From the IMG/VR virus record IMGVR_UViG_3300032285_003860: DNA of 64,000 bases. One strand, written 5' to 3'. Below the pieces are notes generated by a model. It had not been told where the DNA came from. It made no database searches and saw only the letters and a list, made by a program, of their open reading frames with translations. The stretch comes from a virus. A program made the translations under genes and the position numbers. Shown piece by piece: positions 21,622 to 64,000 of this stretch; positions within the stretch are counted from its first letter, which is position 1, and the number at the start of each line of letters is the position of its first letter.

Positions 21622-22011
21622 TTATTTATATAAATTTAAAAAGTCTTTTAGGGATTTGGGTTGTTTTTTAAAAACAGTGTCTTCTCCTATTTTATTTTGA
21701 GACAGCATTATTTCCTGATGTTTAGGAGAAAAATCGGAAATAGATTTTTTATAATTAAAAAACTGCTCTTGCAAATATTGCTGCCCATAATCCGCAATAA
21801 AATAAGCAAGAGATGGTACTTTTTTATTATACGGAGGAATAACCCAAAGAAGAAAATCTGGATTATACTTTGCGCAAAGAGTATTTGCAATCTTCATTTC
21901 CCTTGGCCAGAAATACTTTTCAGAGAAACTGGCTGGATCAATGAATTTAGAAATAATTTTATGCTGAATCTTCGGCTCTTTTTTAAGAGGTTTTTCTTGA
22001 ATTAATTTCAT
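21622..22011 (-). CDS. Hypothetical protein
   Basis: 129-aa ORF co-oriented between gmd and recA. Confidence 0.55.
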   Translation of the reverse strand: MKLIQEKPLKKEPKIQHKIISKFIDPASFSEKYFWPREMKIANTLCAKYNPDFLLWVIPPYNKKVPSLAYFIADYGQQYLQEQFFNYKKSISDFSPKHQEIMLSQNKIGEDTVFKKQPKSLKDFLNLYK

Positions 22012-26066: not shown

Positions 26067-27054
26067 TATTTATAACTTCTTTTATTATATATTCTGCGAG
26101 TAATTTCGGAGATAAATTCTCGCATTCTCTTTTGCATGATTGAGATAAATTTTCTCCACCAAAAGCTTCTAAAAAATATGATGGACATTTCTTTCTGCAT
26201 TCTAAATGCAAATGACTTGGAAAAAATGAATTTCCAAGTTTAAAAAATTCTACTTTATTAATTAAACACGCTTGAAACAAAACAATGGGCTTATTTCTTA
26301 TATTAAATGCATGATGTACTCCGCCATCACTCATTATTCCATAATCCATAAAATCTACATTCCTTATTAAATTAAAAATGTCTCCTGTGTCTGGGCAATG
26401 CTCGTCTCCAATTCCAAAATTTTCTTGAGAAAACTCAAATATTTTTATTCTAGGATTGGAATATTTTAATGTTTTTACTAGCTCTTTCCATGATTCTAGC
26501 CCTTTCATACCATTAAATCTAAACCCTTTTCCATCGCAATGGGGGTGAGGCGTTGTTTTGCCTGAAAGTTTTGTGGTGGGAACAATTCCTATGTTAATAA
26601 AATTAGTATTATTTTCGTATTTTGGCACATTTATTTCTGATAAAAAGCTTTGTTTTTTATCAAAAAGTAGGTTTTCTAGCCCTAATTGAAGTAGGTAATT
26701 CAATGTGATTATATTTGCTGTTGGATGGTTTTCTAAAAGTTCAGCATTATCTTTCCAGAATGTAAACGTCTTTGGGTGCCAATCTGGATAAATTACCTTT
26801 ATATTTTCTATTTTCTCATCCGAAAGGGCGTATTGATGATAATTAACGTATATTTCTTGCTGATTTGGTTCTCTAACCAAGTCTACGTTTTTATCCAATT
26901 TAAATATATCTATAAGAAATCCATAAGTGATTACTTCTAGGGTGCAATCTGGATATACTGATTTTAAAATCTTGGGAACAAAAGTAAAAATTAAACTATC
27001 CCCAAGGTTTTTTGGAAATATCCATCTTGGAAAATATAATCGAATATTTTTCAT
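26014..27054 (-). CDS. GT9 (heptosyltransferase-like) glycosyltransferase
   Basis: LGDSLIFT..LKSVYP, SDGGVHHA; likely start ATG at 27054. Confidence 0.65.
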   Translation of the reverse strand: MKNIRLYFPRWIFPKNLGDSLIFTFVPKILKSVYPDCTLEVITYGFLIDIFKLDKNVDLVREPNQQEIYVNYHQYALSDEKIENIKVIYPDWHPKTFTFWKDNAELLENHPTANIITLNYLLQLGLENLLFDKKQSFLSEINVPKYENNTNFINIGIVPTTKLSGKTTPHPHCDGKGFRFNGMKGLESWKELVKTLKYSNPRIKIFEFSQENFGIGDEHCPDTGDIFNLIRNVDFMDYGIMSDGGVHHAFNIRNKPIVLFQACLINKVEFFKLGNSFFPSHLHLECRKKCPSYFLEAFGGENLSQSCKRECENLSPKLLAEYIIKEVINNEKISNIQLGSWRSFQI

Positions 27055-27869
27055 TCTATTAACTCTTTTATTCCATTTTTTATATCTATTTTTTGCACAA
27101 AACCCATCTTTTTTATCTTTTCGCAATCTAAAACCATATCTTTTGTCTGTACTATTTTATGGAAATTTGACGCTTCTATAGGAGTAATTTTACTCGTAGA
27201 CCCTGTTTCTTTTATTATAAAGTCAATAATTTCTCTAAAGTTTTGTGGAATTCCGCTCCCTATATTTATTATCTGATTGTGGTCTGAATTATTAATACAT
27301 AAATTGATTGCATTGCATACATCAGAGACATGCATATAATCTCTTACAAATTGGCCATCATTATATAATTCTATATCTTCTTTATTTTTTATTTTTTTGA
27401 CAAGATACTGTAACGCATTTTTTTGTTTAGATATTCCTTTGTCATTCTTACCGTAAACATTACATAGTCGAAGTATTCTATATTTTATATTAAACGTTGC
27501 GCAATAGCTTATAATTAAATCTTCTGCGCATTTTTTTGTTATACTATAAAAACCTTTTGGATTACAGCAAAAATCTTCCTTCGCTGGTAAATCAACATTT
27601 CCATAAACAAACCAGCTGCTTATAAAATTAAAAGTAATATCTTTGTCTTTGCAGTGACTTAATACTTTTAATAATTTAATTAAATTTGTATTTACATCTT
27701 TGTAGATATCATCGAATACATGATAATTATGAGTGGTGCTAATCATGTATAGCACATCTTTAAATAAGGGAATATCGCCTGCCCTGTTGTGTATATGGGT
27801 AGACTCAGGGTACAGATTATAATAATTGCTACCTATAAATCCTGTGCCGCCAAACAAGTCAACTTTCAT
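27051..27869 (-). CDS. NAD-dependent epimerase/dehydratase
   Basis: GGTGFIG, SSWFVYG, YSITK, RLCNVYG, RDYMHVSD. Confidence 0.88.
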   Translation of the reverse strand: MKVDLFGGTGFIGSNYYNLYPESTHIHNRAGDIPLFKDVLYMISTTHNYHVFDDIYKDVNTNLIKLLKVLSHCKDKDITFNFISSWFVYGNVDLPAKEDFCCNPKGFYSITKKCAEDLIISYCATFNIKYRILRLCNVYGKNDKGISKQKNALQYLVKKIKNKEDIELYNDGQFVRDYMHVSDVCNAINLCINNSDHNQIINIGSGIPQNFREIIDFIIKETGSTSKITPIEASNFHKIVQTKDMVLDCEKIKKMGFVQKIDIKNGIKELIE

Positions 27870-29160
27870 ATTTCGACAAAACTTCTTGAATATATTCTAT
27901 ATTTTCTTTTGATATTGTTGGGGAGCATCCGACAAAGAATACTAAATCCAGAACTTTATTCGATTCTGGATATTTTTTATAATCATCAAGGTGTTTATAG
28001 CCTTTATGCATTAGGAGATTGCCTGCAAAATAATTACGGGTCTGTATACCATTTTTCTCTAAATAATTAACTAGATTGAGCTTTTGAGTCTTATTGTTGC
28101 AAATGATAGGTACTCCAAATGGAACCCAATCTGTATCACTCAAGCATTTTGGAAATCTTATGTCTTTGACGTTGTCTTTGAACACTTTCCATATTTCTAA
28201 TAAATTATCTGCTCTTTTTTCGCAAATAAAGTCAAGCTTCTTTAACTGTTCTATTCCTATTGCCCCTTGCAAGTCTAAAGGTTTTAGATTGTATCCAATT
28301 CTATTGAATACATATTTATGGTCAATTATTGTGTCTGGAAAGTCACTTAGCCAGTTTGAAAATCTCTTTCCACAAGAGCCATTGGCTAAAAGATTACATG
28401 TTCCTACGCACCAGCAATCTCTTCCCCAAGTTCCATAGCTTCTGGCTAATTGAACAATTTGCTCTATGTCAGAAGATACCATTCCGCCTTCTAAAGTGGT
28501 TATTTCATGCGCTGGATAGAAAGAACATGATGAAGCTATAGCATATTCATTTAAATATTTGCCTTTCCATTTTGACCCAAGAGAATCGCAATTATCTAGC
28601 AAAAGAGTGATGTCTCCCATTTCGCATATATTTAATAAAACATCCATGTCTGGTGGATTACCCAATACAGGACTTAAAAATATTGCTTTTGTATTTTTGG
28701 TAATTTTGTTTTTTAATTTGTCAAGATCAAAGTTTAAAGTATCCCATTCAATATCTATAAATACTGGTTTCAGTCCATTTTGAACTATTGAAGATACTGT
28801 CGTTGGGAATCCCACCGCAGAAACAATAATTTCATCTCCGTCTTGCCATTTAAAATATTCTTTGCAAGCGGCAATTAAAAGTAAATTTGCTGAACTCCCG
28901 CTATTGGTAAAAAATGAGAACTTTTGATTTGTCTTTTTTCCAAATTCTTTTTCAAATTGGGCGCATGTTTCTCCAGAGCTTGACCATTTTCCAAATAACA
29001 AAGCTTCGATTGCTGCCGCCATTTCATTCTCATCAAAAAATGCTCCTGAATAATAAACTTTATTCTTTGGAGCATTCAGATTATGGCAAAACTTTGGAAG
29101 ATTTCCATGTTCTTCCTGTAGTTTTAATATGAAATTTTTTATGACTTCTCTTTTATCCAT
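27859..29160 (-). CDS. rfbH: RfbH/DdhC-type NDP-4-keto-6-deoxyhexose 3-dehydratase (PMP/[2Fe-2S])
   Basis: NSGSSANL, SFYPAH with His replacing the DegT Lys, GRDCWC...C..CGKRF Fe-S cysteines, TRNYFAGN. Confidence 0.85.
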   Translation of the reverse strand: MDKREVIKNFILKLQEEHGNLPKFCHNLNAPKNKVYYSGAFFDENEMAAAIEALLFGKWSSSGETCAQFEKEFGKKTNQKFSFFTNSGSSANLLLIAACKEYFKWQDGDEIIVSAVGFPTTVSSIVQNGLKPVFIDIEWDTLNFDLDKLKNKITKNTKAIFLSPVLGNPPDMDVLLNICEMGDITLLLDNCDSLGSKWKGKYLNEYAIASSCSFYPAHEITTLEGGMVSSDIEQIVQLARSYGTWGRDCWCVGTCNLLANGSCGKRFSNWLSDFPDTIIDHKYVFNRIGYNLKPLDLQGAIGIEQLKKLDFICEKRADNLLEIWKVFKDNVKDIRFPKCLSDTDWVPFGVPIICNNKTQKLNLVNYLEKNGIQTRNYFAGNLLMHKGYKHLDDYKKYPESNKVLDLVFFVGCSPTISKENIEYIQEVLSKYES

Positions 29161-29174
29161 AATTTATTATTGTT

Positions 29175-29900
29175 TTATCTATTAAATCCAATTTTATCGT
29201 GATTAACAAGGAATTTTAGATATATTTTTTCTGCCCCTTTGTTTATTTTCTCTGAATATTCTGGACTTCTGTTCTCATAATCATAAGTATAATTAACCAA
29301 AAGCTTTGGAATATTATAAAATTGATAATGTTTCACTGCTCTGCTAAATAAATCATAATCTTCGCTAACACAAGAATCGTCATATCCCCCGCATTTAGTC
29401 AATATTCTTTTGTTAAAAATTAAAGATGGGTGAGCCATTGGGTTGTTTCCAATATGATAACTGTGAAGAATTTGTTCGTGTGTTTCTGGATAAAAAACTT
29501 CTTTGACCCCATCTTTTGTATGAAAGAACATGCCTGTTCCGCAAACATCAATTTTATTTTCAATGACGAATGGCAGTTGAATTTCTATCTTATTTAATAG
29601 CCATTCATCATCACAGTCAAGAATTGAAAAATAATCACAATCAGTGATTTTCATTGCTGTAAAAAGACTAGTATTTCTTCCTGCCACTAATCCTTTTTCT
29701 GGGCTTTTTGCATAAATTATATTTTCATACTCCGATACAACTTCTAAAAGGTTGTCTGTCGAGGCGAGATCATTTACTATAACTATTTTATAATCAAACA
29801 TACCCTTTTTAAAGGCTGTTTGATTAACTATAGAATCAAGAGCTTTTTTTATTATTCCTGCTCCGTTTTTCACCGTCATTAAGATTGCAATTGTTTCCAT
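29175..29900 (-). CDS. GT2 glycosyltransferase
   Basis: ILMTVKN, NDLASTD, GLVAGRN, LDCDD, EDYDL. Confidence 0.85.
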   Translation of the reverse strand: METIAILMTVKNGAGIIKKALDSIVNQTAFKKGMFDYKIVIVNDLASTDNLLEVVSEYENIIYAKSPEKGLVAGRNTSLFTAMKITDCDYFSILDCDDEWLLNKIEIQLPFVIENKIDVCGTGMFFHTKDGVKEVFYPETHEQILHSYHIGNNPMAHPSLIFNKRILTKCGGYDDSCVSEDYDLFSRAVKHYQFYNIPKLLVNYTYDYENRSPEYSEKINKGAEKIYLKFLVNHDKIGFNR

Positions 29901-29903
29901 TTT

Positions 29904-30512
29904 TTATAATAGTTCGTCTAATTTAAAGTCTTTTCTTTTAAAAATCGCGCAAAACACTCCTTCGCTATCGTAAATGTTATGAAGATTTAAATAACAAAAA
30001 AAGTCAAAATTGTTCTTGGAAAAAGTCTTTACCCACGTTTTTTTACATTTCCTATTTATGTGCGTTGGATCTTTTTCTGAGATTTCCAATACAAATTTTG
30101 CGTTATCTTCAAGCGGGACAGGTATTCTTACGAGAACAAAATTAGATTTTAAATTGGTTAAAATTTCATCGACTTCCTTCTCTGGAATATGCTCTAAAAC
30201 ATCTAAAAAGAAAACAAGATTTTGCTGAGGTATATTTTTTGGGTCAAAAACAGTAAAACCCTTTGATTCTGTGACTGACCTTGCCCAATTTGATATTTCT
30301 ACTCCATGGATTTTATTATAACCAATCTGTTTAAATCCCTGCATTAAAAAACCGACGGCACAACCATAATCAAGAATTGGTTGATTTTTAAAATCAAGAC
30401 CCATGCTATCAAAAAAAGAATCTATTTCTCTTGCAAGCTTGGCATATCTTTGGCCTCTAGAAAGATAATTTTTATAATTATTTGTCTCGTAGTATTCTTT
30501 TTCAAAGTTCAT
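29904..30512 (-). CDS. Class I SAM-dependent methyltransferase
   Basis: ILDYGCAVG, GVEIS, DVLEH, DPTHI. Confidence 0.85.
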   Translation of the reverse strand: MNFEKEYYETNNYKNYLSRGQRYAKLAREIDSFFDSMGLDFKNQPILDYGCAVGFLMQGFKQIGYNKIHGVEISNWARSVTESKGFTVFDPKNIPQQNLVFFLDVLEHIPEKEVDEILTNLKSNFVLVRIPVPLEDNAKFVLEISEKDPTHINRKCKKTWVKTFSKNNFDFFCYLNLHNIYDSEGVFCAIFKRKDFKLDELL

Positions 30513-31615
30513 GGGAAGTTTTTGTCTGGCATATCATTACATACGGTATGCAATAGTTTATTATTAAATTTATAATAGCAGTATTTACAAGTACTTTCCC
30601 AATTTTCGCCATTATTATTTTTTATTTCGTATGGGAAACCTTTTTCTTTAAAGTTTTCGTTTATTTTATTCCATGTGACAATAATGTCTTCAACCTTGCA
30701 TAAAGAATAGTCTAAATCATAATTTCTTTTATTCAAAACATGACTTGTGCATGTATAGACATGGTATTCATTTTTGCCATGTGGGTCTGGGGCAACATAG
30801 GGGCGAATCATTCCTACATAGCATCCATCATTAAATGGAGAGTCATCATATCCAATGTCTTTGATAAAGATTTTATTAAATTTGTCTACTTCATCAATCG
30901 TTTCTTGAAATTCCTGTCTTACACTTGCGTTGTTTCCTTTTATTAAGCAATTTCCTGCTATTCTAACGAATTTAATTTCTGGATTCAATTCAAGGACTTT
31001 TGCAATTCTTCTAATTGTCTCTGCGTTCGTGGGCGTATATTTCTTTCCAATTCTTGTTCCTGTTCCAGATTCTTCATCATAAATAATGTAAGAAAGACCC
31101 ATTTTATTGGCTGGAAAAGAACAAAAGTCATAGTCTTCTGGATTAAATCCTTCGTCTAGCTTAATTAAACTTATTCTTATCCAAGAAATTTTATCAAAGT
31201 TTTCTTTTTTAATTTTGTTTAGTTTTAGGGTATTAGTAATTATTCCAATAAAATAACCAAGTTCATTTGCATATTCTATGATTGAATTAATATCATCACC
31301 TGTGTCTTTGTCTCTATAAATCAAAGGCTCTCCTCCGCCGGTTATTTCTACGCTTTTTGCACCCAGCAACTTGAAATCTCTTAGAGTTTGCTTTATTTTT
31401 TCAAATGGCATATAGCTCTTAAGTGGTCTTTCTGCAACCGAGCAAAATGGGCAACCGCTTGAGCAAGCCTCAATTGGCGCGAGTTGAATAGTTATAGGTT
31501 TAAAAGTTCTATCTTTTTGAATTGAATGCAGAACGTCTGTATGTTGAAGAAGCTTATCTCCCCAAGTGCTGTATTTTTGGGTAAGGTCTTGATGTTTTTT
31601 TGTTTTGTTTTCCAT
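30509..31615 (-). CDS. Radical SAM protein with SPASM/twitch-like C-terminus
   Basis: CSSGCPFC, TGGGEP, additional C-terminal Cys. Confidence 0.88.
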   Translation of the reverse strand: MENKTKKHQDLTQKYSTWGDKLLQHTDVLHSIQKDRTFKPITIQLAPIEACSSGCPFCSVAERPLKSYMPFEKIKQTLRDFKLLGAKSVEITGGGEPLIYRDKDTGDDINSIIEYANELGYFIGIITNTLKLNKIKKENFDKISWIRISLIKLDEGFNPEDYDFCSFPANKMGLSYIIYDEESGTGTRIGKKYTPTNAETIRRIAKVLELNPEIKFVRIAGNCLIKGNNASVRQEFQETIDEVDKFNKIFIKDIGYDDSPFNDGCYVGMIRPYVAPDPHGKNEYHVYTCTSHVLNKRNYDLDYSLCKVEDIIVTWNKINENFKEKGFPYEIKNNNGENWESTCKYCYYKFNNKLLHTVCNDMPDKNFP

Positions 31616-31618
31616 ATT

Positions 31619-32413
31619 CTATTTTATTAGATAAGCAAATTTATCTCTATTTTTCATTACATAACTCGGTAGGCCAATTGAATCGTCTTTAACGATATGA
31701 AATCCATTTCTATCATAAGGGTCTCTCAATGAGTCTCTTCTTTCTTTTATTTTCTCGACAGACAGGTATTCTGGAGAATGATACTCGCTATGAGAGCTTG
31801 CGAGCATTTTATAAGCAATTTGATTTTCATCTCCTAAATGAGAAAAATGCCAGCCAGAATTGTAAATTCTATTAAGATGGTCTTTTGATTGCCTTACGTC
31901 ATTAAAGTTTTTATTTTTTAAATTTTTATATCTATCGCAAACAACAGAAGGAAACCAATAATGATTATCTGGAGACAATATCGGAGTATTCATATACCAG
32001 AAAAATCCTCTTAGAGTTAAAACGCATGGGAAAGTTTTAAGTTCTGATACGGATTTTGCCGTAGGAATTTCATCTAAATCAGAAAACATAATGATATCTT
32101 CGTCATCGCAATGAGCCAAGGCATTTTTTACCGCATCTCTTTGAAGAAACATTAATGAATGCCTATGTTCGTCACCTTTGTTATAAAATTCTGAAGAAGG
32201 GTTCTGCAAACCTTTCTCAAGTTTTAAATAAATAATCTTATCTTTGTATTTTTGATATATTTCTGAATTTTCAAGATAGAATGGCTTTTTTACATTAGAA
32301 ACAGTAATATCTGATTCGCAAATAACAAATTTATCAACTACATCTTTTAGTTCTTCAATTCTTATTTCTAAAATGTGGGTTTCGTTTAAAAAGTTAAAAC
32401 AATCGTAAATCAT
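31619..32413 (-). CDS. GT17 (beta-1,4-GlcNAc transferase-like)
   Basis: IYDCF.F.NE..ILEIR..EL..VVDKFVICES, QRD, SDLDEIP, GWHFS. Confidence 0.85.
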   Translation of the reverse strand: MIYDCFNFLNETHILEIRIEELKDVVDKFVICESDITVSNVKKPFYLENSEIYQKYKDKIIYLKLEKGLQNPSSEFYNKGDEHRHSLMFLQRDAVKNALAHCDDEDIIMFSDLDEIPTAKSVSELKTFPCVLTLRGFFWYMNTPILSPDNHYWFPSVVCDRYKNLKNKNFNDVRQSKDHLNRIYNSGWHFSHLGDENQIAYKMLASSHSEYHSPEYLSVEKIKERRDSLRDPYDRNGFHIVKDDSIGLPSYVMKNRDKFAYLIK

Positions 32414-32417
32414 ATTT

Positions 32418-33260
32418 TTATTCAGTTATGATGTTCCAAAAATCAAATGATGCAGTATTGCATTTATTTAAAAACTCTTTCATTCCGAGTCTTTTCATTT
32501 CATGGATACATCCTATCTTATCATTAATCATCATTTCCATTCCTGATAAAGCTGCCTCTCCTGCGGCTCTACAAAAGGGTTCATCTATTCTAGGGAAATA
32601 TATAAAAGTTTTATATTTATTATATAGTTCGGGCATCTTTTCGTGAGATACTTTTCCAAGGAATTCTATATTTGGAATGCTTGTGGCTAAATGTTCAAAA
32701 ATCTTTTCTCCCCATCCAGCGACGACAAATTGTATTTGCGGATTATCTATAGCGTATCTAAAAAAGTCAAAAGTGCCTTTGAATTCGTGCATGAATCCAA
32801 CGTAAAGGACTTTATCTTCCCTATTATTCTTATTATCAAAAAAGATAGATGAATCTATTGGGTCTGGAACTATTCTAACGTTAATAAAATAATCTCCGTA
32901 ATGATTTTTAAATAAATTATAATGATATTCAGTTAGGAAGAATGCATTTTTGCAGCTTGTGTAAAGCTGATGTCTTTTAGACTGAGAAAGATATCTATTC
33001 ATATCATGCTCGACTCTTGAATGAGCTTTTGCAGAAGATAAATAATCAATTATAAATGGATATTTCTGGTTTAAAAATTCAAGATTTGCAGAAATCACAT
33101 GGTCGTAAGAGTTTTTAAGCAATTCTGGGTCTGAATCACAAGTAAAATGAGTTATATTTAAACCCATCTGCCTTCCCTTTTTAATAATAATATCATCGCT
33201 TCTTTGAGCGCCTCCAGGACTATGCAAGATTGAAAAATCAGAAACCCAAAGAATGTTCAT
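32418..33260 (-). CDS. GT4 glycosyltransferase
   Basis: GGAQ, LYVG....KG, EPFCRAAGEA. Confidence 0.8.
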   Translation of the reverse strand: MNILWVSDFSILHSPGGAQRSDDIIIKKGRQMGLNITHFTCDSDPELLKNSYDHVISANLEFLNQKYPFIIDYLSSAKAHSRVEHDMNRYLSQSKRHQLYTSCKNAFFLTEYHYNLFKNHYGDYFINVRIVPDPIDSSIFFDNKNNREDKVLYVGFMHEFKGTFDFFRYAIDNPQIQFVVAGWGEKIFEHLATSIPNIEFLGKVSHEKMPELYNKYKTFIYFPRIDEPFCRAAGEAALSGMEMMINDKIGCIHEMKRLGMKEFLNKCNTASFDFWNIITE

Positions 33261-33270
33261 ATTTTATATA

Positions 33271-34116
33271 TTATCTATTCCACGAAATAGCGTGGTTTTT
33301 AATTAGACCATCATTCTTGTCTATATATTCAAAAATAAATTCTATTTGTGGTATATTGGTACTCTTTGCTTCCCTGAGTTTTCCAAAAAGATCTTTTAAT
33401 GATACTGTTTTGGGTATATTTATTTCTGCGAGTTGCTGTTTTAAGGCAGAGTATCCTGTAACTTTCTTAATATAAATATGTGACTTAGATTGTTTTAATA
33501 ATTTAAATATTTGAGTAAAAAATATATCATTCTGACTCTTTGTATAAGAAGTTAGATTTCCAAATCTAACAGATTTAAATGCCACTGCGCCATCAAAATA
33601 ATCTAATCCAAAATTAAAAACATCATCGCATTCAAATTTTATTCCATCTTCATCTAAGAAATACCCATAAAAAGTAAAAATTTCTTCATTAGCTTTTATA
33701 TCTTTTGAGGCAGTAAATATAAATGTTTTATCTTTTATTTTCCACTCAGCATTGTTTCCGCTGTTTGAAGTATTGTAGATTGGTCCAAATCCCAATGGTA
33801 AAACTGTATAAACTACTTCTTCTCCATCTGGATGATATTTTGGCATCCATTTAAAATAATAATCTTCCGCATCTTTAAAACCAAGATTCTTTCGAAGATT
33901 TTCTATGAATTTTTCTTTTGGATGAAGAAGGTTTTGAGATTTTAATGTATCAATAATTGGCTTTAAAGATAATACTTGCTGTGGGAGAACAATAAATGGC
34001 GACTCTTCTAGCGTCTCTCCATTTTGAATATCCTCTTTTGCAAATACCCCAAATCCTTCTATTGGAGAATTTCTTACTTCTATTTTAGATGAGAAAATCA
34101 GTTTGTTTTTTTGCAT
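33271..34116 (-). CDS. SET-domain protein (putative lysine methyltransferase)
   Basis: EVRNSPIEGFGVFAKEDI..GE, LGFGPIYNTS, A.KDIKANEEIFTFYG. Confidence 0.8.
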   Translation of the reverse strand: MQKNKLIFSSKIEVRNSPIEGFGVFAKEDIQNGETLEESPFIVLPQQVLSLKPIIDTLKSQNLLHPKEKFIENLRKNLGFKDAEDYYFKWMPKYHPDGEEVVYTVLPLGFGPIYNTSNSGNNAEWKIKDKTFIFTASKDIKANEEIFTFYGYFLDEDGIKFECDDVFNFGLDYFDGAVAFKSVRFGNLTSYTKSQNDIFFTQIFKLLKQSKSHIYIKKVTGYSALKQQLAEINIPKTVSLKDLFGKLREAKSTNIPQIEFIFEYIDKNDGLIKNHAISWNR

Positions 34117-34444
34117 GAGGATGTTTCTTTCCAGTTCTCTGTTCGTATTTCAATTCTGCATTTCTACGCATTTCATCTTGACCAGAGTTGCCTCCTCTTT
34201 TTTCAGAAAGCTCTGCGCTTTTATCCCACAATTGTCCTAAAGAATAATTTTTTTGCCTAGTCTTTCTTACAAAGTCATTTGGGTCGGTTAAACTTAACTG
34301 TGTATCTATTGAAGCCTGTGGTTTACAAAATTCTCTTTGCCATTTTACACCTTTTTCGTCTATATAAATATGTTCATCGCTCATAGCTTGAACGACTTCT
34401 ATGATTTTTCCATTTTCTGGATGAGAGAATGTATAAATAGGCAT
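34085..34444 (-). CDS. FmdB-like small protein (Cys-less zinc-ribbon homologue)
   Basis: MPIYTF..ENG..IEVVQAMSD N-terminus. Confidence 0.5.
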   Translation of the reverse strand: MPIYTFSHPENGKIIEVVQAMSDEHIYIDEKGVKWQREFCKPQASIDTQLSLTDPNDFVRKTRQKNYSLGQLWDKSAELSEKRGGNSGQDEMRRNAELKYEQRTGKKHPHAKKQTDFLI

Positions 34445-34447
34445 ATC

Positions 34448-35143
34448 TTAAATAGTTATATCAAAATTATCTGAAATTGGTACGCGAGACGCAATGAATA
34501 AAGCCCTTGATTTTTCCTTTATTGGAATAGAAAAACAATTTACAAAACCTTTTATACCCATAGCTTTTTTAAAGTCAATAAATTCTTCTTCATTACACGA
34601 GACTTCTCCACAAATAGATTTAACATTCTTTTCTATTAGCTTAGAATTTGTAAGGATTTCTCTTTCGGCATATCCTATATTTAATTTCATTATATCAATT
34701 TCTTCTCCATAGCAGTATTCTGTTAAAATAGTATCTAAGTTATGGCATTGACATGGATAATAATTTTCCTGTTCTTCTTTAATTAAACCAATGGAAGACA
34801 AGTCGAAATAGATATTATCAACAAATTCTGGAGTAGAAAATCTACCAATTATTGACTCTGTATATATTCCCAGTTGAAAGGGAGTAACTCTCCCAACAAA
34901 ATCTAATTTATAACAATTTTGAAGCAATGACTTAAAATTATCTAAAAATGGCTCGATTGCATATACTTTTCTTGCTCCAAGCGTGAGGGCAGTAAATGAG
35001 AAAAAACCAGCGTGCGCGCCAATATCCAAGAATACTTTTGAATTGTCTTTGTTTGCTTTTAATTTGTAATAATTATTAAAAAAGACATTGTCAAAAATAC
35101 CTTGGTCATTGGTAAAGCTTCTGGTTATAATTTCTGGGGTCAT
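34448..35143 (-). CDS. FkbM-family methyltransferase
   Basis: FLDIGAHAGFFS, VYAIEP, IDIMKLNIGYAE. Confidence 0.8.
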   Translation of the reverse strand: MTPEIITRSFTNDQGIFDNVFFNNYYKLKANKDNSKVFLDIGAHAGFFSFTALTLGARKVYAIEPFLDNFKSLLQNCYKLDFVGRVTPFQLGIYTESIIGRFSTPEFVDNIYFDLSSIGLIKEEQENYYPCQCHNLDTILTEYCYGEEIDIMKLNIGYAEREILTNSKLIEKNVKSICGEVSCNEEEFIDFKKAMGIKGFVNCFSIPIKEKSRALFIASRVPISDNFDITI

Positions 35144-35145
35144 AT

Positions 35146-36240
35146 TTATGATACCGAGGCAATAACATTTTCAACAAACTTTTCTTTAGAGAATGTGGTT
35201 TGAAGGGTTTTACCTGCTTCGTTTTGCCTATTAGATAAAACTTTTCTACAGGCTAATTCACAGGCAGAGATAAAATCTGCTTCATTAAAGTCATAAATAT
35301 TACCTTGATTGAAAGGCTGGCCCTTTTGAAAAAACATTCCATCATACGCTGGAATTTTTTCAGAAGGATTTACCCAAGTTACCATTTCGTCCGTTGCCCA
35401 GTCTTTATAGGTATGAGCATTAAGCAATACAGCGTGTTTACCTATTGCAACACTTTGGAATTCTGGAAGCGCCCATCCTTCTCCACCAGAAAGACCAAGA
35501 ACAACATCTCCACTATTAAGGAAATCATTGTACATTGAATTTTCATTCATTGATGGATAGAAACTGACATTGAAAGGTTTTTCTCCGCCAAGGATTCCAC
35601 CAATAATCTGCTGATTCTGTTGCTCAGATAAAAATCCATTATAAATTGCGCACTGAAGTGAATAATTAGGTTTGTTTCCAAATTTTTTTATCCAAGACTG
35701 AATAACCTTGGCATGATTTTTCCTTTTCTCAAATTTACCGCAAAGATTAAAAACAACTCTTTCATCATTAAAGAACTTCTTTTTGACGGAAAAAAAGTTA
35801 AAAGAATCAAAAGCTAAAGGCAAATATCCTGTTTCTACTCCAGCATTTTTAAATGCTTCGCAGCTATATTTTGAAGAAAAATACGTTTTATTATTTTTTG
35901 CAATATTGACTTCTACTTTTGTTGGCTCGTCCAATTCATGAAAAGACAACAAGCTCTGGCTTTTTGAAAAAGACTCTAAAGAACCATTTAAATGCCAAAG
36001 CTTGAAAATTGGGATATCTCTCGTATAATTTTCAAGGCCATTTATGATTTTAGAATTAATCCAGTCGCTAAATTCTTTTGTTACTGATTGACTAGATAAA
36101 TCCACTGGACCAATAGGAAATAAATAAATATCATGCTTTATTCCGGTTGACTTTTCTTGTTCAAAGATTGTGCGGATTAAAAGTGATGATACTTGACCAA
36201 AACTAACTCTATTGAGTGGTAAATTTAATGCTAATTTCAT
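35146..36240 (-). CDS. GT4 glycosyltransferase
   Basis: GKFEKRKN, SGGEGWALPEFQ. Confidence 0.8.
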   Translation of the reverse strand: MKLALNLPLNRVSFGQVSSLLIRTIFEQEKSTGIKHDIYLFPIGPVDLSSQSVTKEFSDWINSKIINGLENYTRDIPIFKLWHLNGSLESFSKSQSLLSFHELDEPTKVEVNIAKNNKTYFSSKYSCEAFKNAGVETGYLPLAFDSFNFFSVKKKFFNDERVVFNLCGKFEKRKNHAKVIQSWIKKFGNKPNYSLQCAIYNGFLSEQQNQQIIGGILGGEKPFNVSFYPSMNENSMYNDFLNSGDVVLGLSGGEGWALPEFQSVAIGKHAVLLNAHTYKDWATDEMVTWVNPSEKIPAYDGMFFQKGQPFNQGNIYDFNEADFISACELACRKVLSNRQNEAGKTLQTTFSKEKFVENVIASVS

Positions 36241-49039: not shown

Positions 49040-49059
49040 AGCGTGTAAGTTAAGATAGA

Positions 49060-49782
49060 ATGAAATATCTTAGCGTATTTATATCAGACACCCACATTGG
49101 AAGCAAAAATACTAATATAAAGAAGCTTTTGTCTTTTTTAAAAGAAGTAGAATGCGAAAACTTATTTATCGTTGGAGATTTTATTGATGGATGGGAATTA
49201 AAATCCAAATGGCGTTGGAAAAATGACTATAACACGCTCTTGCAAAAACTCTTAAGAAAGAGTCGCAAAGGAACAAAAATATACCTATTGATTGGAAATC
49301 ACGATGATTTCCTTTTTCCTTTTAAAGATACAGAATTTGGCAATATATCCATACTGCGCGATTATGTTCATGTTACCGCAAATAAGAAAAAATGTTTAGT
49401 TATTCATGGCGACCAGTTTGATGGCATAATTAAATATGCAAAATGGTTGCAACACATTGGCTCTCACCTCTATAATTTAATCATTGACCTAAATACCCTA
49501 ATCAATAGATTAGCTAGAAAATTTGGCAAAACATATAGCTTTGCAAAAGCAATAAAACAAAACACAAAAGCCGCATTAAGTTTTATAAACAAATTTGAGC
49601 AATGCGTAATTGATGATGCAAAAAAGCATAACGCAGAAATTGTGATTTGCGGTCATGTTCATACCCCTTGTCATAAAAAAATAGAAGGCATTGAATATTT
49701 TAATTGTGGTTCTTGGCAGGAAGATGAATTTCATGCTGTGGTAGAGACTCAAGATGGAAAATTAAAACTAATTGATTTATGA
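49060..49782 (+). CDS. PlcP/LpxH-like metallophosphoesterase (putative phospholipase C)
   Basis: FISDTHIG, VGDFIDGW, QKLLRKSRKGT, GNHDD, HGDQFD..IKYAKWL, CGHVH, NCGSW. Confidence 0.8.
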   Translation: MKYLSVFISDTHIGSKNTNIKKLLSFLKEVECENLFIVGDFIDGWELKSKWRWKNDYNTLLQKLLRKSRKGTKIYLLIGNHDDFLFPFKDTEFGNISILRDYVHVTANKKKCLVIHGDQFDGIIKYAKWLQHIGSHLYNLIIDLNTLINRLARKFGKTYSFAKAIKQNTKAALSFINKFEQCVIDDAKKHNAEIVICGHVHTPCHKKIEGIEYFNCGSWQEDEFHAVVETQDGKLKLIDL

Positions 49783-50819
49783 AATGCGTATTTATTATTC
49801 AAGGAGAAGGCAGAGGGCATTCGACCCAAGCAATAGCGTTAGCGCAAATGCTAAAAGAACTTGGGGTAGAAGTTATTGCAGCATATATTGGTAAAAATCA
49901 TATTGGACGTAACCATGATTGGGTATTTAAAGAAATTGGAGTTGATGAGAATTATTTTTATAGCCCCAATTTTGTTTACAAAAACAACGAAGTGTCATTA
50001 AAAAGAACTGCTTTTAAATTCATTAAAAATATTTTTCAAATAAGAAAATCAATAAAACATCTCAAAAATGAACTTAAACAAATCAATCCAGATTTTGTGG
50101 TCAATTTTTATGAGCCACTTGCCCCTTTTGCTAAATCTGGCTTACAGATTCCTACTGTAACCATAGGGCATCAATTTTTAATTGACCATCCAAGTTATCC
50201 GCAGCAATTACCAATGCAAAGGAAATTAATCAGCCTTTTTAACAAATTAGTATCCTACCATAGCACTAAAGTAATAGCCCTTAGCTTTTATCCTTTAGTT
50301 GGTCAATACAAACACTATATCGCTCCTCCTCTTTTAAGAGAAGAAGTATTAAAAGCAAAACCAAAAACTATTTTCAATAAAGTTGTTGCGTATGTAATTA
50401 ATCCAATTTTTGTTCATAGTATCACTCAACAAGCATTTTGTTATTTAAAATATAAATTCACAATTTATAACGAATTATACGAACACAAAGGATTTAATTT
50501 TCAATCTAAGAAAATTTCCCCAGCTTTTGTTGATGATTTATTATCTGCCGAATATATTGTAACATCGGGGGGTTTTGAAACAATTTCAGAAGCTCATTAT
50601 CACGAAAAAAAGATTTTAGCCGTGCCTGTTAAAAATCATGCAGAACAAACCCTCAATACTATAGATGCATCAGAGAGAGGAATCATATTAACAAATAATG
50701 ATTATGATTTAAGTAAACTGCTTTTAAAAAATAATAGATTTCAAAAATCGCAATTTTCAAAAGAAGAATATAAAGAATGGTATATTAGATTCTTTAAAAA
50801 CTTTATCAAAAATATTTGA
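49779..50819 (+). CDS. GT-B glycosyltransferase (MJ1255/VC2487, GT28-like)
   Basis: QGEGRGHSTQ, PDFVVNFYEP, TSGGFETISEA, PVKNHAEQ..N; ATGA overlap with the upstream gene. Confidence 0.8.
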   Translation: MKCVFIIQGEGRGHSTQAIALAQMLKELGVEVIAAYIGKNHIGRNHDWVFKEIGVDENYFYSPNFVYKNNEVSLKRTAFKFIKNIFQIRKSIKHLKNELKQINPDFVVNFYEPLAPFAKSGLQIPTVTIGHQFLIDHPSYPQQLPMQRKLISLFNKLVSYHSTKVIALSFYPLVGQYKHYIAPPLLREEVLKAKPKTIFNKVVAYVINPIFVHSITQQAFCYLKYKFTIYNELYEHKGFNFQSKKISPAFVDDLLSAEYIVTSGGFETISEAHYHEKKILAVPVKNHAEQTLNTIDASERGIILTNNDYDLSKLLLKNNRFQKSQFSKEEYKEWYIRFFKNFIKNI

Positions 50820-50867: not shown

Positions 50868-50896
50868 TTGACAAAATTTTAACGAGTTGATATACT
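50868..50896 (+). promoter_or_regulatory. Strong sigma70 promoter of tRNA cluster
   Basis: TTGACA-N17-TATACT with extended TG. Confidence 0.75.
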
Positions 50897-54104: not shown

Positions 54105-54146
54105 TTTTTTTAGACACTTTATCTTTTTTTGTGTAATATAAAGTAT

Positions 54147-54650
54147 ATGGCAAACCCTTTTACAAGAGATTACGTTGATATTTTAAATTTCCGCATTGAA
54201 CAAGAAGAAATTGCTTCTCGTTTATATGAAGCTATGTCGCTTTGGCTTGACAATAGTGGATATGTAAACGCTGCAAAAAGATGGAAAAAAGATTCTTTGG
54301 ATGAACTCGTCCATGCAGGATGGGCAAAAGAATATCTTTTAGACATGGGAATCACTCCAAAACTTTCTACTCTCCCAGAATGCCCAACGAGTTTCAAAGG
54401 ATTACCAGATGTTATCAGACAAACTTATGCTTTAGAAATTAAAGTTACCCAGCAATGCAATGATTTGTCCGAATTCGCTATGAAAATAGGCAATCATTTG
54501 CTTCACCAACTTGCGTTAAAGTTTTTAGCTGAACAACAAAAAGGAATGGGCGAAATTCAAACTCTCATGGATAAACTTGCCACTTTTGGCGAAGACAAAA
54601 TTGCCATGCGTTTGTTTGACCACGACTTCCAAGAAGAGCAAGAAGGTTAA
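54147..54650 (+). CDS. ftn: Ferritin
   Basis: LN.RI.QEE.ASRLY.AMS.WLD..GY..AA..W....DEL.HA; E.KVT; FL.EQ. Confidence 0.85.
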   Translation: MANPFTRDYVDILNFRIEQEEIASRLYEAMSLWLDNSGYVNAAKRWKKDSLDELVHAGWAKEYLLDMGITPKLSTLPECPTSFKGLPDVIRQTYALEIKVTQQCNDLSEFAMKIGNHLLHQLALKFLAEQQKGMGEIQTLMDKLATFGEDKIAMRLFDHDFQEEQEG

Positions 54651-57525: not shown

Positions 57526-58104
57526 ATGGTCATTCAAAAACAACAAGACATTAAAGAAACATTTGGCTATTTTATTTCTTTAATTAAAAATAAACAATTA
57601 TTAAAAACTTGCCAAGAGCTATATAATTATCCAGATTTTTGGACTCATGCGGCTTCTCTTGAGCATCACCATAATTTTAAAGGTGGATTAATAATTCATA
57701 CATTAGAAGTTGCTGATAATGCAAATTATTTGAGTCAAAGATTTCAAAACTGCAATAAAGATATTTTAATCTCTGCGGCTCTGTGGCATGACTTGGCAAA
57801 GATTTGGGAATATGAATGGAAAGAAAATAAAGGTCTTTCTTCTTATTATATGCCAAAATTTCATAAAACAGATTATGTCAAAAAAATCCATCATATTTCT
57901 GGCTCAAATGCGGAATTTACCGCAATGGCAATCAAAAACGAAGTGGATAGAAAATATATAACAATGGTGCAGCATTGCATTATCTCGCATCATGGAATAA
58001 AAGATTGGGGTTCTCCAGTCCTTCCAGAGTCTTTGGAGGCAATCATTTTACATCAATCCGATATGTTGAGCGCGATGTATCCGAAATATAACCAACAATT
58101 TTAA
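57526..58104 (+). CDS. HD-domain hydrolase (YhaM-like)
   Basis: AAS..HHHNF.GGL..HTLEV, ALWHDLAK..EY, HCI.SHHG..WGSP..P...EA.ILH.SD. Confidence 0.85.
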   Translation: MVIQKQQDIKETFGYFISLIKNKQLLKTCQELYNYPDFWTHAASLEHHHNFKGGLIIHTLEVADNANYLSQRFQNCNKDILISAALWHDLAKIWEYEWKENKGLSSYYMPKFHKTDYVKKIHHISGSNAEFTAMAIKNEVDRKYITMVQHCIISHHGIKDWGSPVLPESLEAIILHQSDMLSAMYPKYNQQF

Positions 58105-59024: not shown

Positions 59025-59158
59025 AACATAAGCCCCTGAGTAGAGAGTTTCTCCTGAAAAGGGGTTTTTGTTGCCACAATGGGTGCAAAAATTGCCCATA
59101 TAAAAAAACCAAGCCAAATGAACTTAAACAGCCAAAACAAAAGAATACTGGTCTTTAG
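59021..59158 (+). CDS. Small Cys-rich protein (DUF5522-like)
   Basis: FLLKRGFCCHNGCKNCPY; ATGA overlap with the previous gene. Confidence 0.7.
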   Translation: MKHKPLSREFLLKRGFCCHNGCKNCPYKKTKPNELKQPKQKNTGL

Positions 59159-59885
59159 TGACCCGCATCAAAATATTGCGTATGTCGAACATCTTCTTGA
59201 GAAAGAGAAGCATGATACTGCCGTCTGTCTTGGAGACTGGTTTGACAGTTTCAATCTAAATTCAGAGAGGGATTTGGAACTGACCTGCAACTTTTTAAAG
59301 AAATGGCTTTTTAAAGATAACTTCTATACTTGCATTGGCAACCACGATATACAGTATCTTTTTGATAACAACTCCACTATATGTAGTGGCTATAGCAGAG
59401 ATAAAGACTTGTTTATAACTGATTACTTGGGTAGTTTTTTACCTCCCATCAGGGATAAATTCTTATGGTATTTGTGGATTGACGACTTCCTTTGTTCTCA
59501 TGCAGGAATTAACAGTCGTTCGTTTCCTTTTAATCAAGAAATAAATAAATCAACAATAACAACTTGGCTTGAAGGGCAATTAAATCAAGCAATCCCGCAA
59601 TTAATTAATGGAGGTCACCATTGGCTCTATGGTGCAGGCGAAGGCAGGGGCGGCAGACAAAAGATTGGCGGTATTACTTGGCAGGACTTTGATACAGAGT
59701 TTGAGCCGATTGATGGTTTAAAGCAACTGGTTGGACACAGCAGCCATAAAAGGATTTTAAATCACTATACTGATGGCAATTTAGATTTGACAAGTTGTGA
59801 AAACCTTGATATAGATTGTCACCTAAATGAATACTTAATAATCTCTAACGGAAAATTAGAAATAAAAAAACTAAAAGATTTATGA
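59118..59885 (+). CDS. Calcineurin-like metallophosphoesterase
   Basis: SDPH, LGDWFD, GNHD, SHAG, QLVGHS. Confidence 0.85.
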   Translation: MNLNSQNKRILVFSDPHQNIAYVEHLLEKEKHDTAVCLGDWFDSFNLNSERDLELTCNFLKKWLFKDNFYTCIGNHDIQYLFDNNSTICSGYSRDKDLFITDYLGSFLPPIRDKFLWYLWIDDFLCSHAGINSRSFPFNQEINKSTITTWLEGQLNQAIPQLINGGHHWLYGAGEGRGGRQKIGGITWQDFDTEFEPIDGLKQLVGHSSHKRILNHYTDGNLDLTSCENLDIDCHLNEYLIISNGKLEIKKLKDL

Positions 59886-63624: not shown

Positions 63625-64000
63625 ATGAATTTATCCCTCTGCTGCATCTCCCTGCGTCTCCAAGAACAAGGTTATAAGTTTCAGACAATGACTTATACCC
63701 GATTTGCCTCCCTACCCCGCAAAGAAGCACTAGAAATTCTTTCCGCACGAATCCTCAATAATTTTGAGGTAACAGGAGAAATAATCCAATACTGTCATAA
63801 TTCTGGCATCAAAGGCTATCGCCTTTCTTCTGGGCTAACTCCCGTTATCAATCATCCAAGTGTAAATATAAGTCTATCAGACTTACCTAATTCTGATAAG
63901 ATTTTTAAGGAAATCACTAATGTCAAAAAAATTATCAAAGATACTGGAATCCGCATATCTGCTCATCCTAGTGAGTATATTTCTCTTACCAATACTAACA
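63625..64000 (+). CDS. uvsE: UV damage endonuclease (partial, runs off the window)
   Basis: Own translation MNLSLCCISL...YRLSS...GIRISAHPSEYISL; promoter TTGACT-N17-TATATT at 63590. Confidence 0.85.
   Translation, partial: MNLSLCCISLRLQEQGYKFQTMTYTRFASLPRKEALEILSARILNNFEVTGEIIQYCHNSGIKGYRLSSGLTPVINHPSVNISLSDLPNSDKIFKEITNVKKIIKDTGIRISAHPSEYISLTNTN

What the first reader, a model, noticed from the sequence alone, without database searches (positions are those of the whole stretch)
49060..50819. Phage-encoded PlcP-like phospholipase coupled to a glycosyltransferase: membrane lipid remodelling module
Seen: metallophosphoesterase with the GDFIDGW, QKLLRKSRKGT, HGDQFD..IKYAKWL and A.SFI..FE pattern, translationally coupled (ATGA) to a GT28-like enzyme and preceded by the GTGTAA motif. 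Knowledge: this pattern resembles PlcP (often annotated LpxH), which under phosphate starvation cleaves phospholipids to diacylglycerol that neighbouring glycosyltransferases convert to glycolipids. Inference: the phage mines host membrane phosphorus for genome synthesis and back-fills with glycolipid.
Basis: partly seen in the sequence, partly recalled or inferred. Interest (0 to 1): 0.75.

Follow-up and report, generated by a model that had tools for sequence, protein, structure and literature searches.

The report
Phage PlcP phospholipase plus glycosyltransferase pair
A large uncultured phage carries a relative of the bacterial enzyme PlcP, which cuts the phosphate head off membrane lipids, fused in one operon to an unstudied sugar-adding enzyme, so it probably turns host phospholipids into phosphorus-free glycolipids; databases wrongly label the first gene as the lipid A gene lpxH.

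Summary
Two intact ORFs overlap by ATGA: a 240-aa metallophosphoesterase (49060-49782) and a 346-aa GT-B glycosyltransferase (49779-50819).

The phosphoesterase is PlcP-type, not LpxH:
- It scores 57-65 bits against LpxH models whose cut-offs are 134-190.
- It carries His81 where every LpxH has the substrate-binding Arg.
- It is 37-41% identical to the P. aeruginosa PA3219 and S. meliloti PlcP proteins, against 23% to E. coli LpxH.
- A 100%-supported long branch separates it from LpxH.
- Bacteria carrying its closest relatives also have LpxH or LpxI.

The partner is not the classical Agt (GT4). It is an uncharacterised PF13528 / GT28-like enzyme. The pairing is conserved in 9 of 9 viral and 43 of 64 metagenome loci found from the glycosyltransferase side, and the two gene trees recover the same groups. 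Both genes are under purifying selection (dN/dS 0.013 and 0.09).

Relatives of the phosphoesterase occur in at least 434 IMG/VR contigs, often with Agt-like or GT2 partners. I found no paper describing phage PlcP; virome surveys list it as lpxH.

No enzyme activity, lipid product or phosphate-scavenging purpose was tested, and no Pho box or pstS lies nearby. This scan has noted phage PlcP-glycosyltransferase pairs many times on other DNA (78 notes), twice with this partner.

The parts
49043..49048 (+). GTGTAA motif 11 nt upstream of the phosphoesterase start codon. It is a candidate promoter or initiation element shared with several neighbouring genes.
   Evidence: Sequence. The total count is not above chance. 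Five of the 21 copies lie 9-18 nt before ORF starts, at 44872(-), 45893(-), 47790(+), 49043(+) and 51523(-).
49060..49782 (+). PlcP-type Mn-dependent metallophosphoesterase (predicted phospholipase C), 240 aa. It has an LpxH-like core plus a helical cap and no transmembrane segment.
   Evidence: PF00149 and PF12850 hits. LpxH NCBIfam models score 65 and 57 bits against cut-offs of 134 and 190. All seven metal ligands are kept, with His81 in place of the LpxH Arg (PMC5016852). Identity is 40.8% to S. meliloti PlcP, 36.7% to PA3219 and 22.7% to E. coli LpxH. Trees. Model has pLDDT 83.6, and its top 25 PDB hits are all LpxH. dN/dS is 0.013 against L184.
49779..49782 (+). ATGA overlap: the glycosyltransferase start codon overlaps the phosphoesterase stop codon, giving translational coupling.
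   Evidence: Coordinates, sequence. The same head-to-tail arrangement, with a gap of 0-8 nt, is seen in L184, L174-L181, L195, L201, L234, L245, L248 and the P. distasonis locus L265.
49779..50819 (+). GT-B glycosyltransferase of the PF13528 (Glyco_trans_1_3; MJ1255/VC2487-like) family, GT1/GT28-like, 346 aa. It is the predicted diacylglycerol glycosyltransferase.
   Evidence: PF13528 3.8e-34, PF03033 1.4e-6, PF04101 0.0018. TIGR00661 scores 87.7 bits, below its cut-off of 195.9. Model has pLDDT 95.1. Foldseek top hit is MurG at 1.3e-13. VIA-align gives YojK Z 24.9, sterol glucosyltransferase UGT51 Z 22.4, MurG Z 21.0 and plant MGDG synthase MGD1 Z 19.2. There is no BLAST hit to Agt1 PA3218. 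dN/dS is 0.092.

Best explanation
The two genes form a phage-borne, two-step membrane-lipid conversion cassette. Shown by computation: gene 1 is a member of the PlcP branch of the LpxH-like metallophosphoesterases; gene 2 is a nucleotide-sugar GT-B glycosyltransferase of the GT1/GT28 type; the two are translationally coupled, inherited together and kept under purifying selection in a lineage of roughly 170-kb uncultured phages and in Verrucomicrobiota, Methylomirabilota and Bacteroidota-type bacteria. Inferred: during infection the peripheral-membrane PlcP enzyme uses its two-metal centre to cut the phosphodiester bond of host glycerophospholipids, releasing a phosphorylated head group and leaving diacylglycerol in the membrane. 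The coupled glycosyltransferase then transfers a sugar from a nucleotide-sugar onto that diacylglycerol. If it is inverting, like its structural relatives, the product is probably beta-linked. This removes the diacylglycerol and keeps the bilayer intact with a phosphorus-free glycolipid. The most likely benefit is release of membrane phosphorus for phage nucleotide synthesis. Host phosphatases would still be needed to free orthophosphate from the head group.
For: Not LpxH:
- Scores lie far below the curated LpxH cut-offs.
- His81 replaces the Arg that is invariant and substrate-binding in LpxH (Okada 2016, PMC5016852). That paper also noted that the P. aeruginosa paralogue LpxH2 must have another substrate.
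- A 100%-supported branch of length 2.4-5 separates LpxH from the family.
- Betaproteobacterial genomes hold a true LpxH (213-297 bits) plus this paralogue (37-48 bits). Bradyrhizobium and the two Verrucomicrobia genomes that carry the pair hold LpxI and LpxB elsewhere.

PlcP family:
- Identity is 40.8% (8e-68) to the S. meliloti PlcP orthologue, 36.7% (3e-62) to P. aeruginosa PA3219 and 42.7% to a SAR11 plcP-agt locus.
- Characterised PlcPs are themselves only 46-47% identical to one another (PMC8528852).

Partner logic:
- In 55 related loci (34 viral) the gene directly downstream is an Agt1-like GT4, 35-54% identical to PA3218, a proven diacylglycerol glycosyltransferase.
- Here that position is filled by the PF13528 enzyme.
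- The PF13528 partner has the PlcP-like gene directly upstream in 9 of 9 IMG/VR loci and 43 of 64 metagenome loci.
- The two gene trees recover the same sub-groups.

Links to phosphate and lipid metabolism in bacterial versions of the pair:
- PPK1 lies downstream in 7 of 41 loci. One locus has a diacylglycerol-kinase-type gene and one has a lysyl-PG synthase domain.
- The characterised Burkholderia operon is plcP-agt-dagK (PMC13691135).
- Pelagibacter phage Mosig has a homologue next to pstS.

Functionality in phage:
- dN/dS is 0.013 and 0.092.
- The related IMG/VR genome G008 (174.5 kb, CheckV 100%) has a PolIII alpha 56% identical to the window's copy and carries the pair.
Against: - Nothing biochemical was tested.
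- The PF13528/TIGR00661 family has no characterised member that I could find, so diacylglycerol as acceptor rests on gene order and on replacement of Agt.
- The fold matches GT1/GT28 enzymes in general and ranks MGD1 only 33rd.
- No E. coli-type Pho box lies near the module, and no pstS was found in the window, so a link to phosphate starvation is not shown for this phage.
- The host is unknown.
- The cap that should bind the lipid is modelled with low confidence (pLDDT 45-68).
- In Bacteroidota I could not show that a separate LpxH or LpxI exists. A lipid A role for that distant sub-clade of the pair is therefore not excluded.
Confidence: 0.6

Rival explanations
1. The pair does remodel host lipids as described, but the selected benefit is not phosphorus supply. 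Glycolipid enrichment or phospholipid loss could change envelope properties to block superinfecting phages, to alter receptor or porin function, or to tune lysis timing.
For: There is no Pho box at the locus, and no pstS was found in the window. The phage invests heavily in surface-glycan genes at 21983-36240. Published work shows that PlcP-dependent glycolipids change membrane protein content and polymyxin tolerance in P. aeruginosa (PMC8528852, PMC9804370).
Against: In bacteria the pathway is a phosphate-starvation response (PMC4796936). Bacterial copies of this very pair often sit beside PPK1, and a phage homologue sits beside pstS. A roughly 170-kb genome has a high phosphorus demand (inference).
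Confidence: 0.15
2. The phosphoesterase cleaves some other phosphodiester- or pyrophosphate-linked envelope lipid, such as a polyprenyl-diphosphate-sugar or a nucleotide-activated lipid. The glycosyltransferase then builds or edits a surface glycoconjugate, as part of the phage's glycan programme.
For: The window holds a large glycan cluster: GDP-mannose dehydratase, an epimerase, GT10, GT2, GT1 and a DegT aminotransferase. The PF13528 family is uncharacterised. MurG, which uses a polyprenyl-linked acceptor, is among the best structural matches.
Against: The pair lies 13 kb from the glycan cluster on the other strand. It keeps together while its flanks change in related phages. The same pair occurs in bacteria next to PPK1 or a DAG-kinase-type gene, not next to glycan operons. 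The phosphoesterase clusters with enzymes shown to be phospholipases C.
Confidence: 0.12
3. The first gene is a true LpxH and the pair acts in lipid A synthesis, as the database labels imply.
For: The closest solved structures are all LpxH. NCBI, JGI and KEGG-based pipelines label homologues as LpxH. LpxB, the next enzyme of the lipid A pathway, is also a GT-B enzyme.
Against: Scores are below the LpxH cut-offs. The LpxH-specific Arg is replaced by His (PMC5016852). The protein lies on the far side of a 100%-supported long branch from LpxH. Carrier genomes have separate LpxH or LpxI plus LpxB. The glycosyltransferase has no LpxB Pfam hit and no LpxB entry among the 50 best-ranked entries shown.
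Confidence: 0.03
4. The genes are decaying passengers, or the contig is bacterial rather than viral.
For: No structural phage gene was recognised inside the 64-kb window. One GenBank 'phage' contig with the pair (MT836169.1) looks bacterial.
Against: Both ORFs are intact and under strong purifying selection. The window has a phage-type replication module, tRNAs, a tmRNA and homing endonucleases. A related IMG/VR genome rated 100% complete shares its polymerase and the pair.
Confidence: 0.03

Closest known systems
Bacterial PlcP-Agt lipid-renovation pathway (S. meliloti SMc00171; Phaeobacter sp. MED193; SAR11 HTCC7211; P. aeruginosa PA3219-PA3218; B. cenocepacia BCAL2364-2366)
   Same: The first enzyme belongs to the same family: 37-43% identity, the same clade against LpxH and all metal ligands kept. 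The operon logic is the same, with the phospholipase gene immediately followed by, and often overlapping, a glycosyltransferase gene (PMC4796936, PMC8528852, PMC13691135).
   Different: The cassette is carried by a phage. The partner is a PF13528, GT1/GT28-like and probably inverting enzyme, not the GT4 retaining Agt; it has no BLAST similarity to PA3218. No Pho box was found. Products are untested.
LpxH (UDP-2,3-diacylglucosamine diphosphatase, lipid A pathway)
   Same: It has the same metallophosphoesterase core with an inserted helical cap, is the only solved fold of this kind and has the same seven metal ligands.
   Different: Identity is 21-23%. The window protein has GNHD rather than the LpxH-specific GNRD, different cap residues and scores below the curated cut-offs. 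It co-exists with LpxH or LpxI in bacterial carriers.
Phage PlcP-like genes with Agt-like (GT4) or GT2 partners, including Pelagibacter phage Mosig gene 120 annotated as 'UDP-2,3-diacylglucosamine hydrolase'
   Same: These viral genes belong to the same phosphoesterase family: 39% identity to Mosig, and at least 434 IMG/VR contigs carry a relative. They are often followed by a glycosyltransferase.
   Different: The window's lineage uses the PF13528 partner and forms its own clade with Verrucomicrobia-type bacterial pairs. These viral genes are undescribed in the papers I could search and are listed only as lpxH.
GT28/GT1 lipid glycosyltransferases (plant MGD1, MurG, sterol glucosyltransferase UGT51, B. 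subtilis YojK/YjiC)
   Same: They share the GT-B fold over the full length (Z 19-25). The window protein has an N-terminal G-rich loop with an invariant His14 and a C-terminal invariant E289-Q290 pair, and its structural relatives use hydrophobic or lipid acceptors.
   Different: Identity is 12-17%. No characterised member belongs to the window protein's own Pfam family. The acceptor and donor are unknown.

Membership tests
PlcP (metallophosphoesterase-type phospholipase C of lipid remodelling) | Calcineurin-like two-metal centre with all ligands present | tested here: met
   D10, H12, D40, N80, H116, H199 and H201 align with the LpxH metal ligands. They are invariant in 24 and in about 70 family members.
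PlcP (metallophosphoesterase-type phospholipase C of lipid remodelling) | Groups with experimentally characterised PlcP rather than with LpxH | tested here: met
   Identity is 40.8% to the S. meliloti orthologue and 36.7% to PA3219, against 22.7% to E. coli LpxH. Tree path lengths are about 2.5 against about 12, and the LpxH split has 100% SH-aLRT support.
PlcP (metallophosphoesterase-type phospholipase C of lipid remodelling) | Adjacent gene for an enzyme that consumes diacylglycerol (Agt, BtaAB, Pgt) | tested here: inconclusive
   A glycosyltransferase is coupled directly downstream, but it is of an uncharacterised family. Sister loci carry an Agt1-like GT4 at the same position.
PlcP (metallophosphoesterase-type phospholipase C of lipid remodelling) | Phosphate-starvation (PhoB / Pho box) control | tested here: not met
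   No match to CTGTCATNNNNCTGTCAT with up to 3 mismatches lies near the module. The only close match (63792) is inside an ORF. The host, and so its Pho box, is unknown, so this is a weak test.
PlcP (metallophosphoesterase-type phospholipase C of lipid remodelling) | Mn-dependent hydrolysis of PE, PG or PC to diacylglycerol | not testable with these tools
   Needs an enzyme assay or lipidomics.
LpxH (lipid A UDP-2,3-diacylglucosamine diphosphatase) | Score above the curated equivalog cut-offs | tested here: not met
   NF003743 scores 65.2 bits against 134, and TIGR01854 scores 57.3 against 190.35. True LpxH of Betaproteobacteria scores 213-297 bits.
LpxH (lipid A UDP-2,3-diacylglucosamine diphosphatase) | Arg in the GNRD motif, which binds the beta-phosphate and is specific to LpxH among metallophosphoesterases (PMC5016852) | tested here: not met
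   The window protein has GNHD (His81). His is invariant in the PlcP-like set and Arg is present in all four LpxH sequences (paper text).
LpxH (lipid A UDP-2,3-diacylglucosamine diphosphatase) | Fills the pyrophosphatase step of lipid A synthesis in its carriers | tested here: not met
   Carriers of the closest bacterial pairs (G005, G006) have LpxI (141-144 bits) and LpxB elsewhere. Betaproteobacteria have a separate LpxH. This was not settled for Bacteroidota.
Agt (GT4 glycosyl-diacylglycerol synthase) | Sequence membership in the GT4 Agt group | tested here: not met
   There is no BLASTP hit to PA3218 at E<=10. PF13439 scores 23.1 bits, below its cut-off of 28.5.
PF13528 Glyco_trans_1_3 / TIGR00661 (MJ1255/VC2487 family) | Profile match above the curated cut-off | tested here: met
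   PF13528 scores 118.8 bits against 25, over residues 1-308 of the protein and profile positions 1-308 of 322. The narrower TIGR00661 subfamily model scores 87.7 bits against 195.9, which is not met.
GT28 (MurG / MGDG synthase type) | GT28 N- and C-terminal domain profiles and fold | tested here: inconclusive
   PF03033 scores 28.8 bits, above its cut-off of 26.2. PF04101 scores 18.8 bits, below its cut-off of 22. MurG gives Z 21.0 and MGD1 Z 19.2, but GT1 enzymes score higher at Z 22-25.

The most novel reading that the evidence does not exclude
Phages carry complete phospholipid-to-glycolipid conversion cassettes as a widespread and so far unrecognised class of auxiliary metabolic genes, hidden under the label lpxH. 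In this lineage the sugar-adding step is done by the uncharacterised PF13528/MJ1255-type family. That family would then be a new family of diacylglycerol glycosyltransferases used by Verrucomicrobiota, Bacteroidota-type bacteria and their phages.
Probability: 0.5. Interest if true: 0.75.

Novelty: new variant of a known kind. Interest (0 to 1): 0.62.

Why it matters
If the reading is right, phages can take phosphorus directly from the host membrane. That adds a new route to the known viral phosphate genes (pstS, phoH, phoA) and changes how viral 'lpxH' counts in ocean and lake viromes should be read: as lipid remodelling, not LPS synthesis. It would also assign a first function to a large uncharacterised glycosyltransferase family, and it predicts virus-driven shifts in the glycolipid-to-phospholipid ratios that are used as field markers of phosphorus stress. 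The prediction can be tested directly by expressing two small genes in E. coli and running lipidomics.

Tried and rejected
- Lipid A reading (LpxH plus an LpxB-like enzyme): rejected, for the reasons in the report.
- DNA-glucosylation reading of the glycosyltransferase: set aside. The same pair is chromosomal in bacteria next to PPK1 or a DAG-kinase-type gene, and T4-type DNA glucosyltransferases were not among the listed fold matches.
- Pho box search: nothing near the module. The one good match at 63792 is inside an ORF.
- pstS next to the gene in viral loci: found only in Mosig and one fragment, L116, so it is not a general association.
- GTGTAA as an over-represented hexamer: not supported. 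Only its position relative to start codons is unusual.
- A single-protein scan of IMG/VR found nothing. The alignment-based scan was needed.
Genes on the rest of the phage contig could therefore not be examined, and the record behind L184 is not held.
- The paper on PlcP manganese dependence (PMC6052262) is not held.
- The giant ORF 2608-7458 has no match in the related IMG/VR genomes.
- The host could not be assigned. The nearest bacterial relatives point to Verrucomicrobiota or Methylomirabilota for the phosphoesterase. The glycosyltransferase is equally close to Cytophagales and to Verrucomicrobia.
- The freshwater origin comes from earlier notes only and was not verified.
Full report
**What is there**

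The window is a low-GC (about 33%) stretch with the marks of a large phage:
- a DnaB, primase, PolIII-alpha and exonuclease replication module;
- a class II ribonucleotide reductase, ThyX and a sigma factor;
- several HNH-type homing endonucleases;
- tRNAs and a tmRNA;
- no cellular housekeeping genes.

No structural gene was recognised inside the window, and no whole genome is held for it. However, an IMG/VR genome rated 100% complete by CheckV (G008, 174.5 kb) has a PolIII-alpha 56% identical to the window's copy and a weak terminase match (20.4 bits, below the cut-off); two other pair-carrying viral records, G009 and G010, have clear ones.

At 49060-49782 and 49779-50819 on the + strand lie two intact ORFs of 240 and 346 aa. 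They overlap by ATGA.

**The first gene is PlcP-type, not LpxH**

It is a calcineurin-like metallophosphoesterase. Its only close solved relatives are LpxH structures, at 18-22% identity. The predicted model has a confident core and a less confident two-helix cap at residues 121-189.

Four independent tests separate it from LpxH.
1. Profile scores. NCBI's LpxH equivalog models give 65 and 57 bits against cut-offs of 134 and 190. Real LpxH genes of Betaproteobacteria score 213-297 bits.
2. A defining residue. Okada et al. (PMC5016852) state that LpxH alone among metallophosphoesterases replaces the catalytic-site His by Arg80, which clamps the beta-phosphate of the pyrophosphate substrate. The window protein has GNHD. 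His is invariant in about 70 family members, while all four LpxH sequences have Arg. The same paper noted that the P. aeruginosa paralogue 'LpxH2' must have another substrate.
3. Phylogeny. In FastTree and IQ-TREE trees, LpxH is cut off by a 100%-supported branch of length 2.4-5.
4. Genome logic. Three betaproteobacterial genomes carry both a true LpxH and this paralogue. Bradyrhizobium and the two Verrucomicrobia genomes that carry the closest bacterial copies have LpxI and LpxB elsewhere.

**Link to characterised PlcP**

PLSDB happens to hold two useful records. One is a chromosome-sized S. meliloti record. The other is a P. aeruginosa fragment with the gene order PA3219, PA3218, cyaB.
- The window protein is 40.8% identical (8e-68) to the S. 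meliloti protein.
- It is 36.7% identical (3e-62) to PA3219.
- It is 42.7% identical to a SAR11 plcP-agt locus.
- It is 22.7% identical to E. coli LpxH.

Characterised PlcPs are themselves only 46-47% identical to each other (PMC8528852). Tree path lengths are about 2.5 to the PlcP references and about 12 to LpxH.

**The second gene**

It matches PF13528 (3.8e-34) and the GT28 N-terminal domain above its cut-off. It is below the cut-off of the TIGR00661 subfamily model. It has no BLAST similarity to the classical partner Agt1.

A very confident model (pLDDT 95) is a GT-B fold. Its nearest structural relatives are GT1 and GT28 enzymes that glycosylate hydrophobic or lipid acceptors:
- YojK, Z 24.9;
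- sterol glucosyltransferase UGT51, Z 22.4;
- MurG, Z 21.0;
- plant MGDG synthase MGD1, Z 19.2.

This fits a lipid acceptor but does not prove one. I found no paper that characterises the family. Neither protein has a transmembrane segment, and both are basic (net charge +8 and +15). That is in keeping with peripheral membrane enzymes, which is only a weak inference.

**The pair is one unit**
- The closest homologues of both proteins sit on contigs of identical length.
- From the phosphoesterase side, the nearest bacterial loci (Methylomirabilota and two Verrucomicrobia) and the nearest viral loci all have the PF13528 gene directly downstream.
- From the glycosyltransferase side, 9 of 9 IMG/VR loci and 43 of 64 metagenome loci with enough upstream sequence have the PlcP-like gene directly upstream.
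- The phosphoesterase and glycosyltransferase trees recover the same sub-groups.
- The flanking genes differ between related phages.
- Against a relative that is 91% identical at the DNA level (L184), dN/dS is 0.013 for the phosphoesterase and 0.092 for the glycosyltransferase.

**Why diacylglycerol is the likely link**

In 55 related loci, 34 of them viral, the gene at the same downstream position is a GT4. It is 35-54% identical to PA3218 Agt1, which makes monoglucosyl-diacylglycerol (PMC8528852). In 14 viral loci the neighbour is a GT2. The PF13528 gene therefore looks like a non-orthologous replacement of Agt.

Bacterial and metagenomic copies of the PF13528-type pair are followed by polyphosphate kinase PPK1 in 7 of 41 loci. 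One locus has a DAG-kinase-type gene and one has a lysyl-PG synthase domain. This echoes the characterised plcP-agt-dagK operon of Burkholderia (PMC13691135). Pelagibacter phage Mosig has a homologue beside pstS.

**What is not shown**

There is no assay, no lipid measurement and no expression data. No Pho box lies near the module, and no pstS was found in the window. The host is unknown. For the distant Bacteroidota sub-clade of the pair (for example P. distasonis) I could not show a separate LpxH or LpxI, so a lipid A role there is not excluded.

**Novelty**

Relatives of the phosphoesterase occur in at least 434 IMG/VR contigs. They form several purely viral clades, and some sit next to T4-type RegA or SegE genes. 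Full-text searches found no paper that joins PlcP with phage or auxiliary metabolic genes. Virome studies list the gene as lpxH under LPS biosynthesis (PMC10653327, PMC9611531), and the Mosig genome announcement does not discuss it.

Within this scan the theme is frequent. There are 78 notes in at least 68 genomes, two of them with the PF13528 partner. I treated those notes as leads and re-derived the evidence here.

I class the finding as a new variant of a known kind: the bacterial PlcP-glycosyltransferase pathway, carried by a phage and with a different, unstudied glycosyltransferase.

Noticed in passing
window 44872(-), 45893(-), 47790(+), 49043(+), 51523(-), 41455(+), 20051(-), 52123(+): GTGTAA is not over-represented overall, but it sits 9-18 nt upstream of five ORF starts, 31 nt before the tmRNA gene and directly before two further ATGs. 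It may be a phage promoter or initiation element for one set of genes.
   Followed up: partly
window, leaders of 52 ORFs of at least 150 aa: Only 7 of 52 leaders have a Shine-Dalgarno-like motif. Many have a TATAAT-like hexamer 5-15 nt before the ATG, which suggests very short or absent leaders and a host with low Shine-Dalgarno use.
   Followed up: partly
window 21983-36240 (-): This is a large glycan-synthesis cluster on the other strand. It encodes GDP-mannose 4,6-dehydratase, an epimerase, a GT10 fucosyltransferase-like protein, two GT2, a DegT-type aminotransferase, a radical SAM protein and GT1-type enzymes. A further GT1-like ORF lies at 103-2040.
   Followed up: partly
window 2608-7458 (+) and 7480-12279 (+): Two adjacent giant ORFs of 1616 and 1599 aa have no Pfam or PHROG match. 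The first has no match in the related IMG/VR genomes.
   Followed up: partly
window 50868-50896 (+): A near-consensus sigma-70-type promoter (TTGACA, 17 nt, TATACT, with a TG extension) lies just after the glycosyltransferase stop and ahead of tRNA-Pro (51066). It marks the end of the cassette's transcription unit.
   Followed up: no
window 59079-59885 (+), 54129-54650 (+), 57526-58104 (+): These ORFs are a second, unrelated metallophosphoesterase (SbcD-like), a ferritin-like protein and an HD-domain protein.
   Followed up: no
window 63792-63809 (+): This sequence matches the E. coli Pho box consensus with one mismatch (CTGTCATAATTCTGGCAT), but it lies inside an ORF that runs off the window. 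It is probably a chance match.
   Followed up: partly
L002 (MT836169.1, 'Bacteriophage sp.', human faeces): This unverified 12-kb 'phage' contig carries the phosphoesterase-glycosyltransferase pair followed by polyphosphate kinase PPK1. It groups with gut Bacteroidales-type loci, so it is probably bacterial DNA.
   Followed up: partly
L263 (CP090106.1) and L264 (NZ_CP042268.1) in the plasmid collection: A 3.72-Mb S. meliloti record labelled pSymB is chromosome-sized. A P. aeruginosa 'plasmid' carries the chromosomal PA3219-PA3218-cyaB region. Both look like mislabelled or misassembled replicons.
   Followed up: no
L008, L013, L065 and L002, L197, L209, L213, L233, L254, L255: Polyphosphate kinase PPK1 lies directly downstream of plcP-type genes, or of the PlcP-PF13528 pair, in several unrelated bacteria. 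This is a recurring link between lipid remodelling and polyphosphate.
   Followed up: partly
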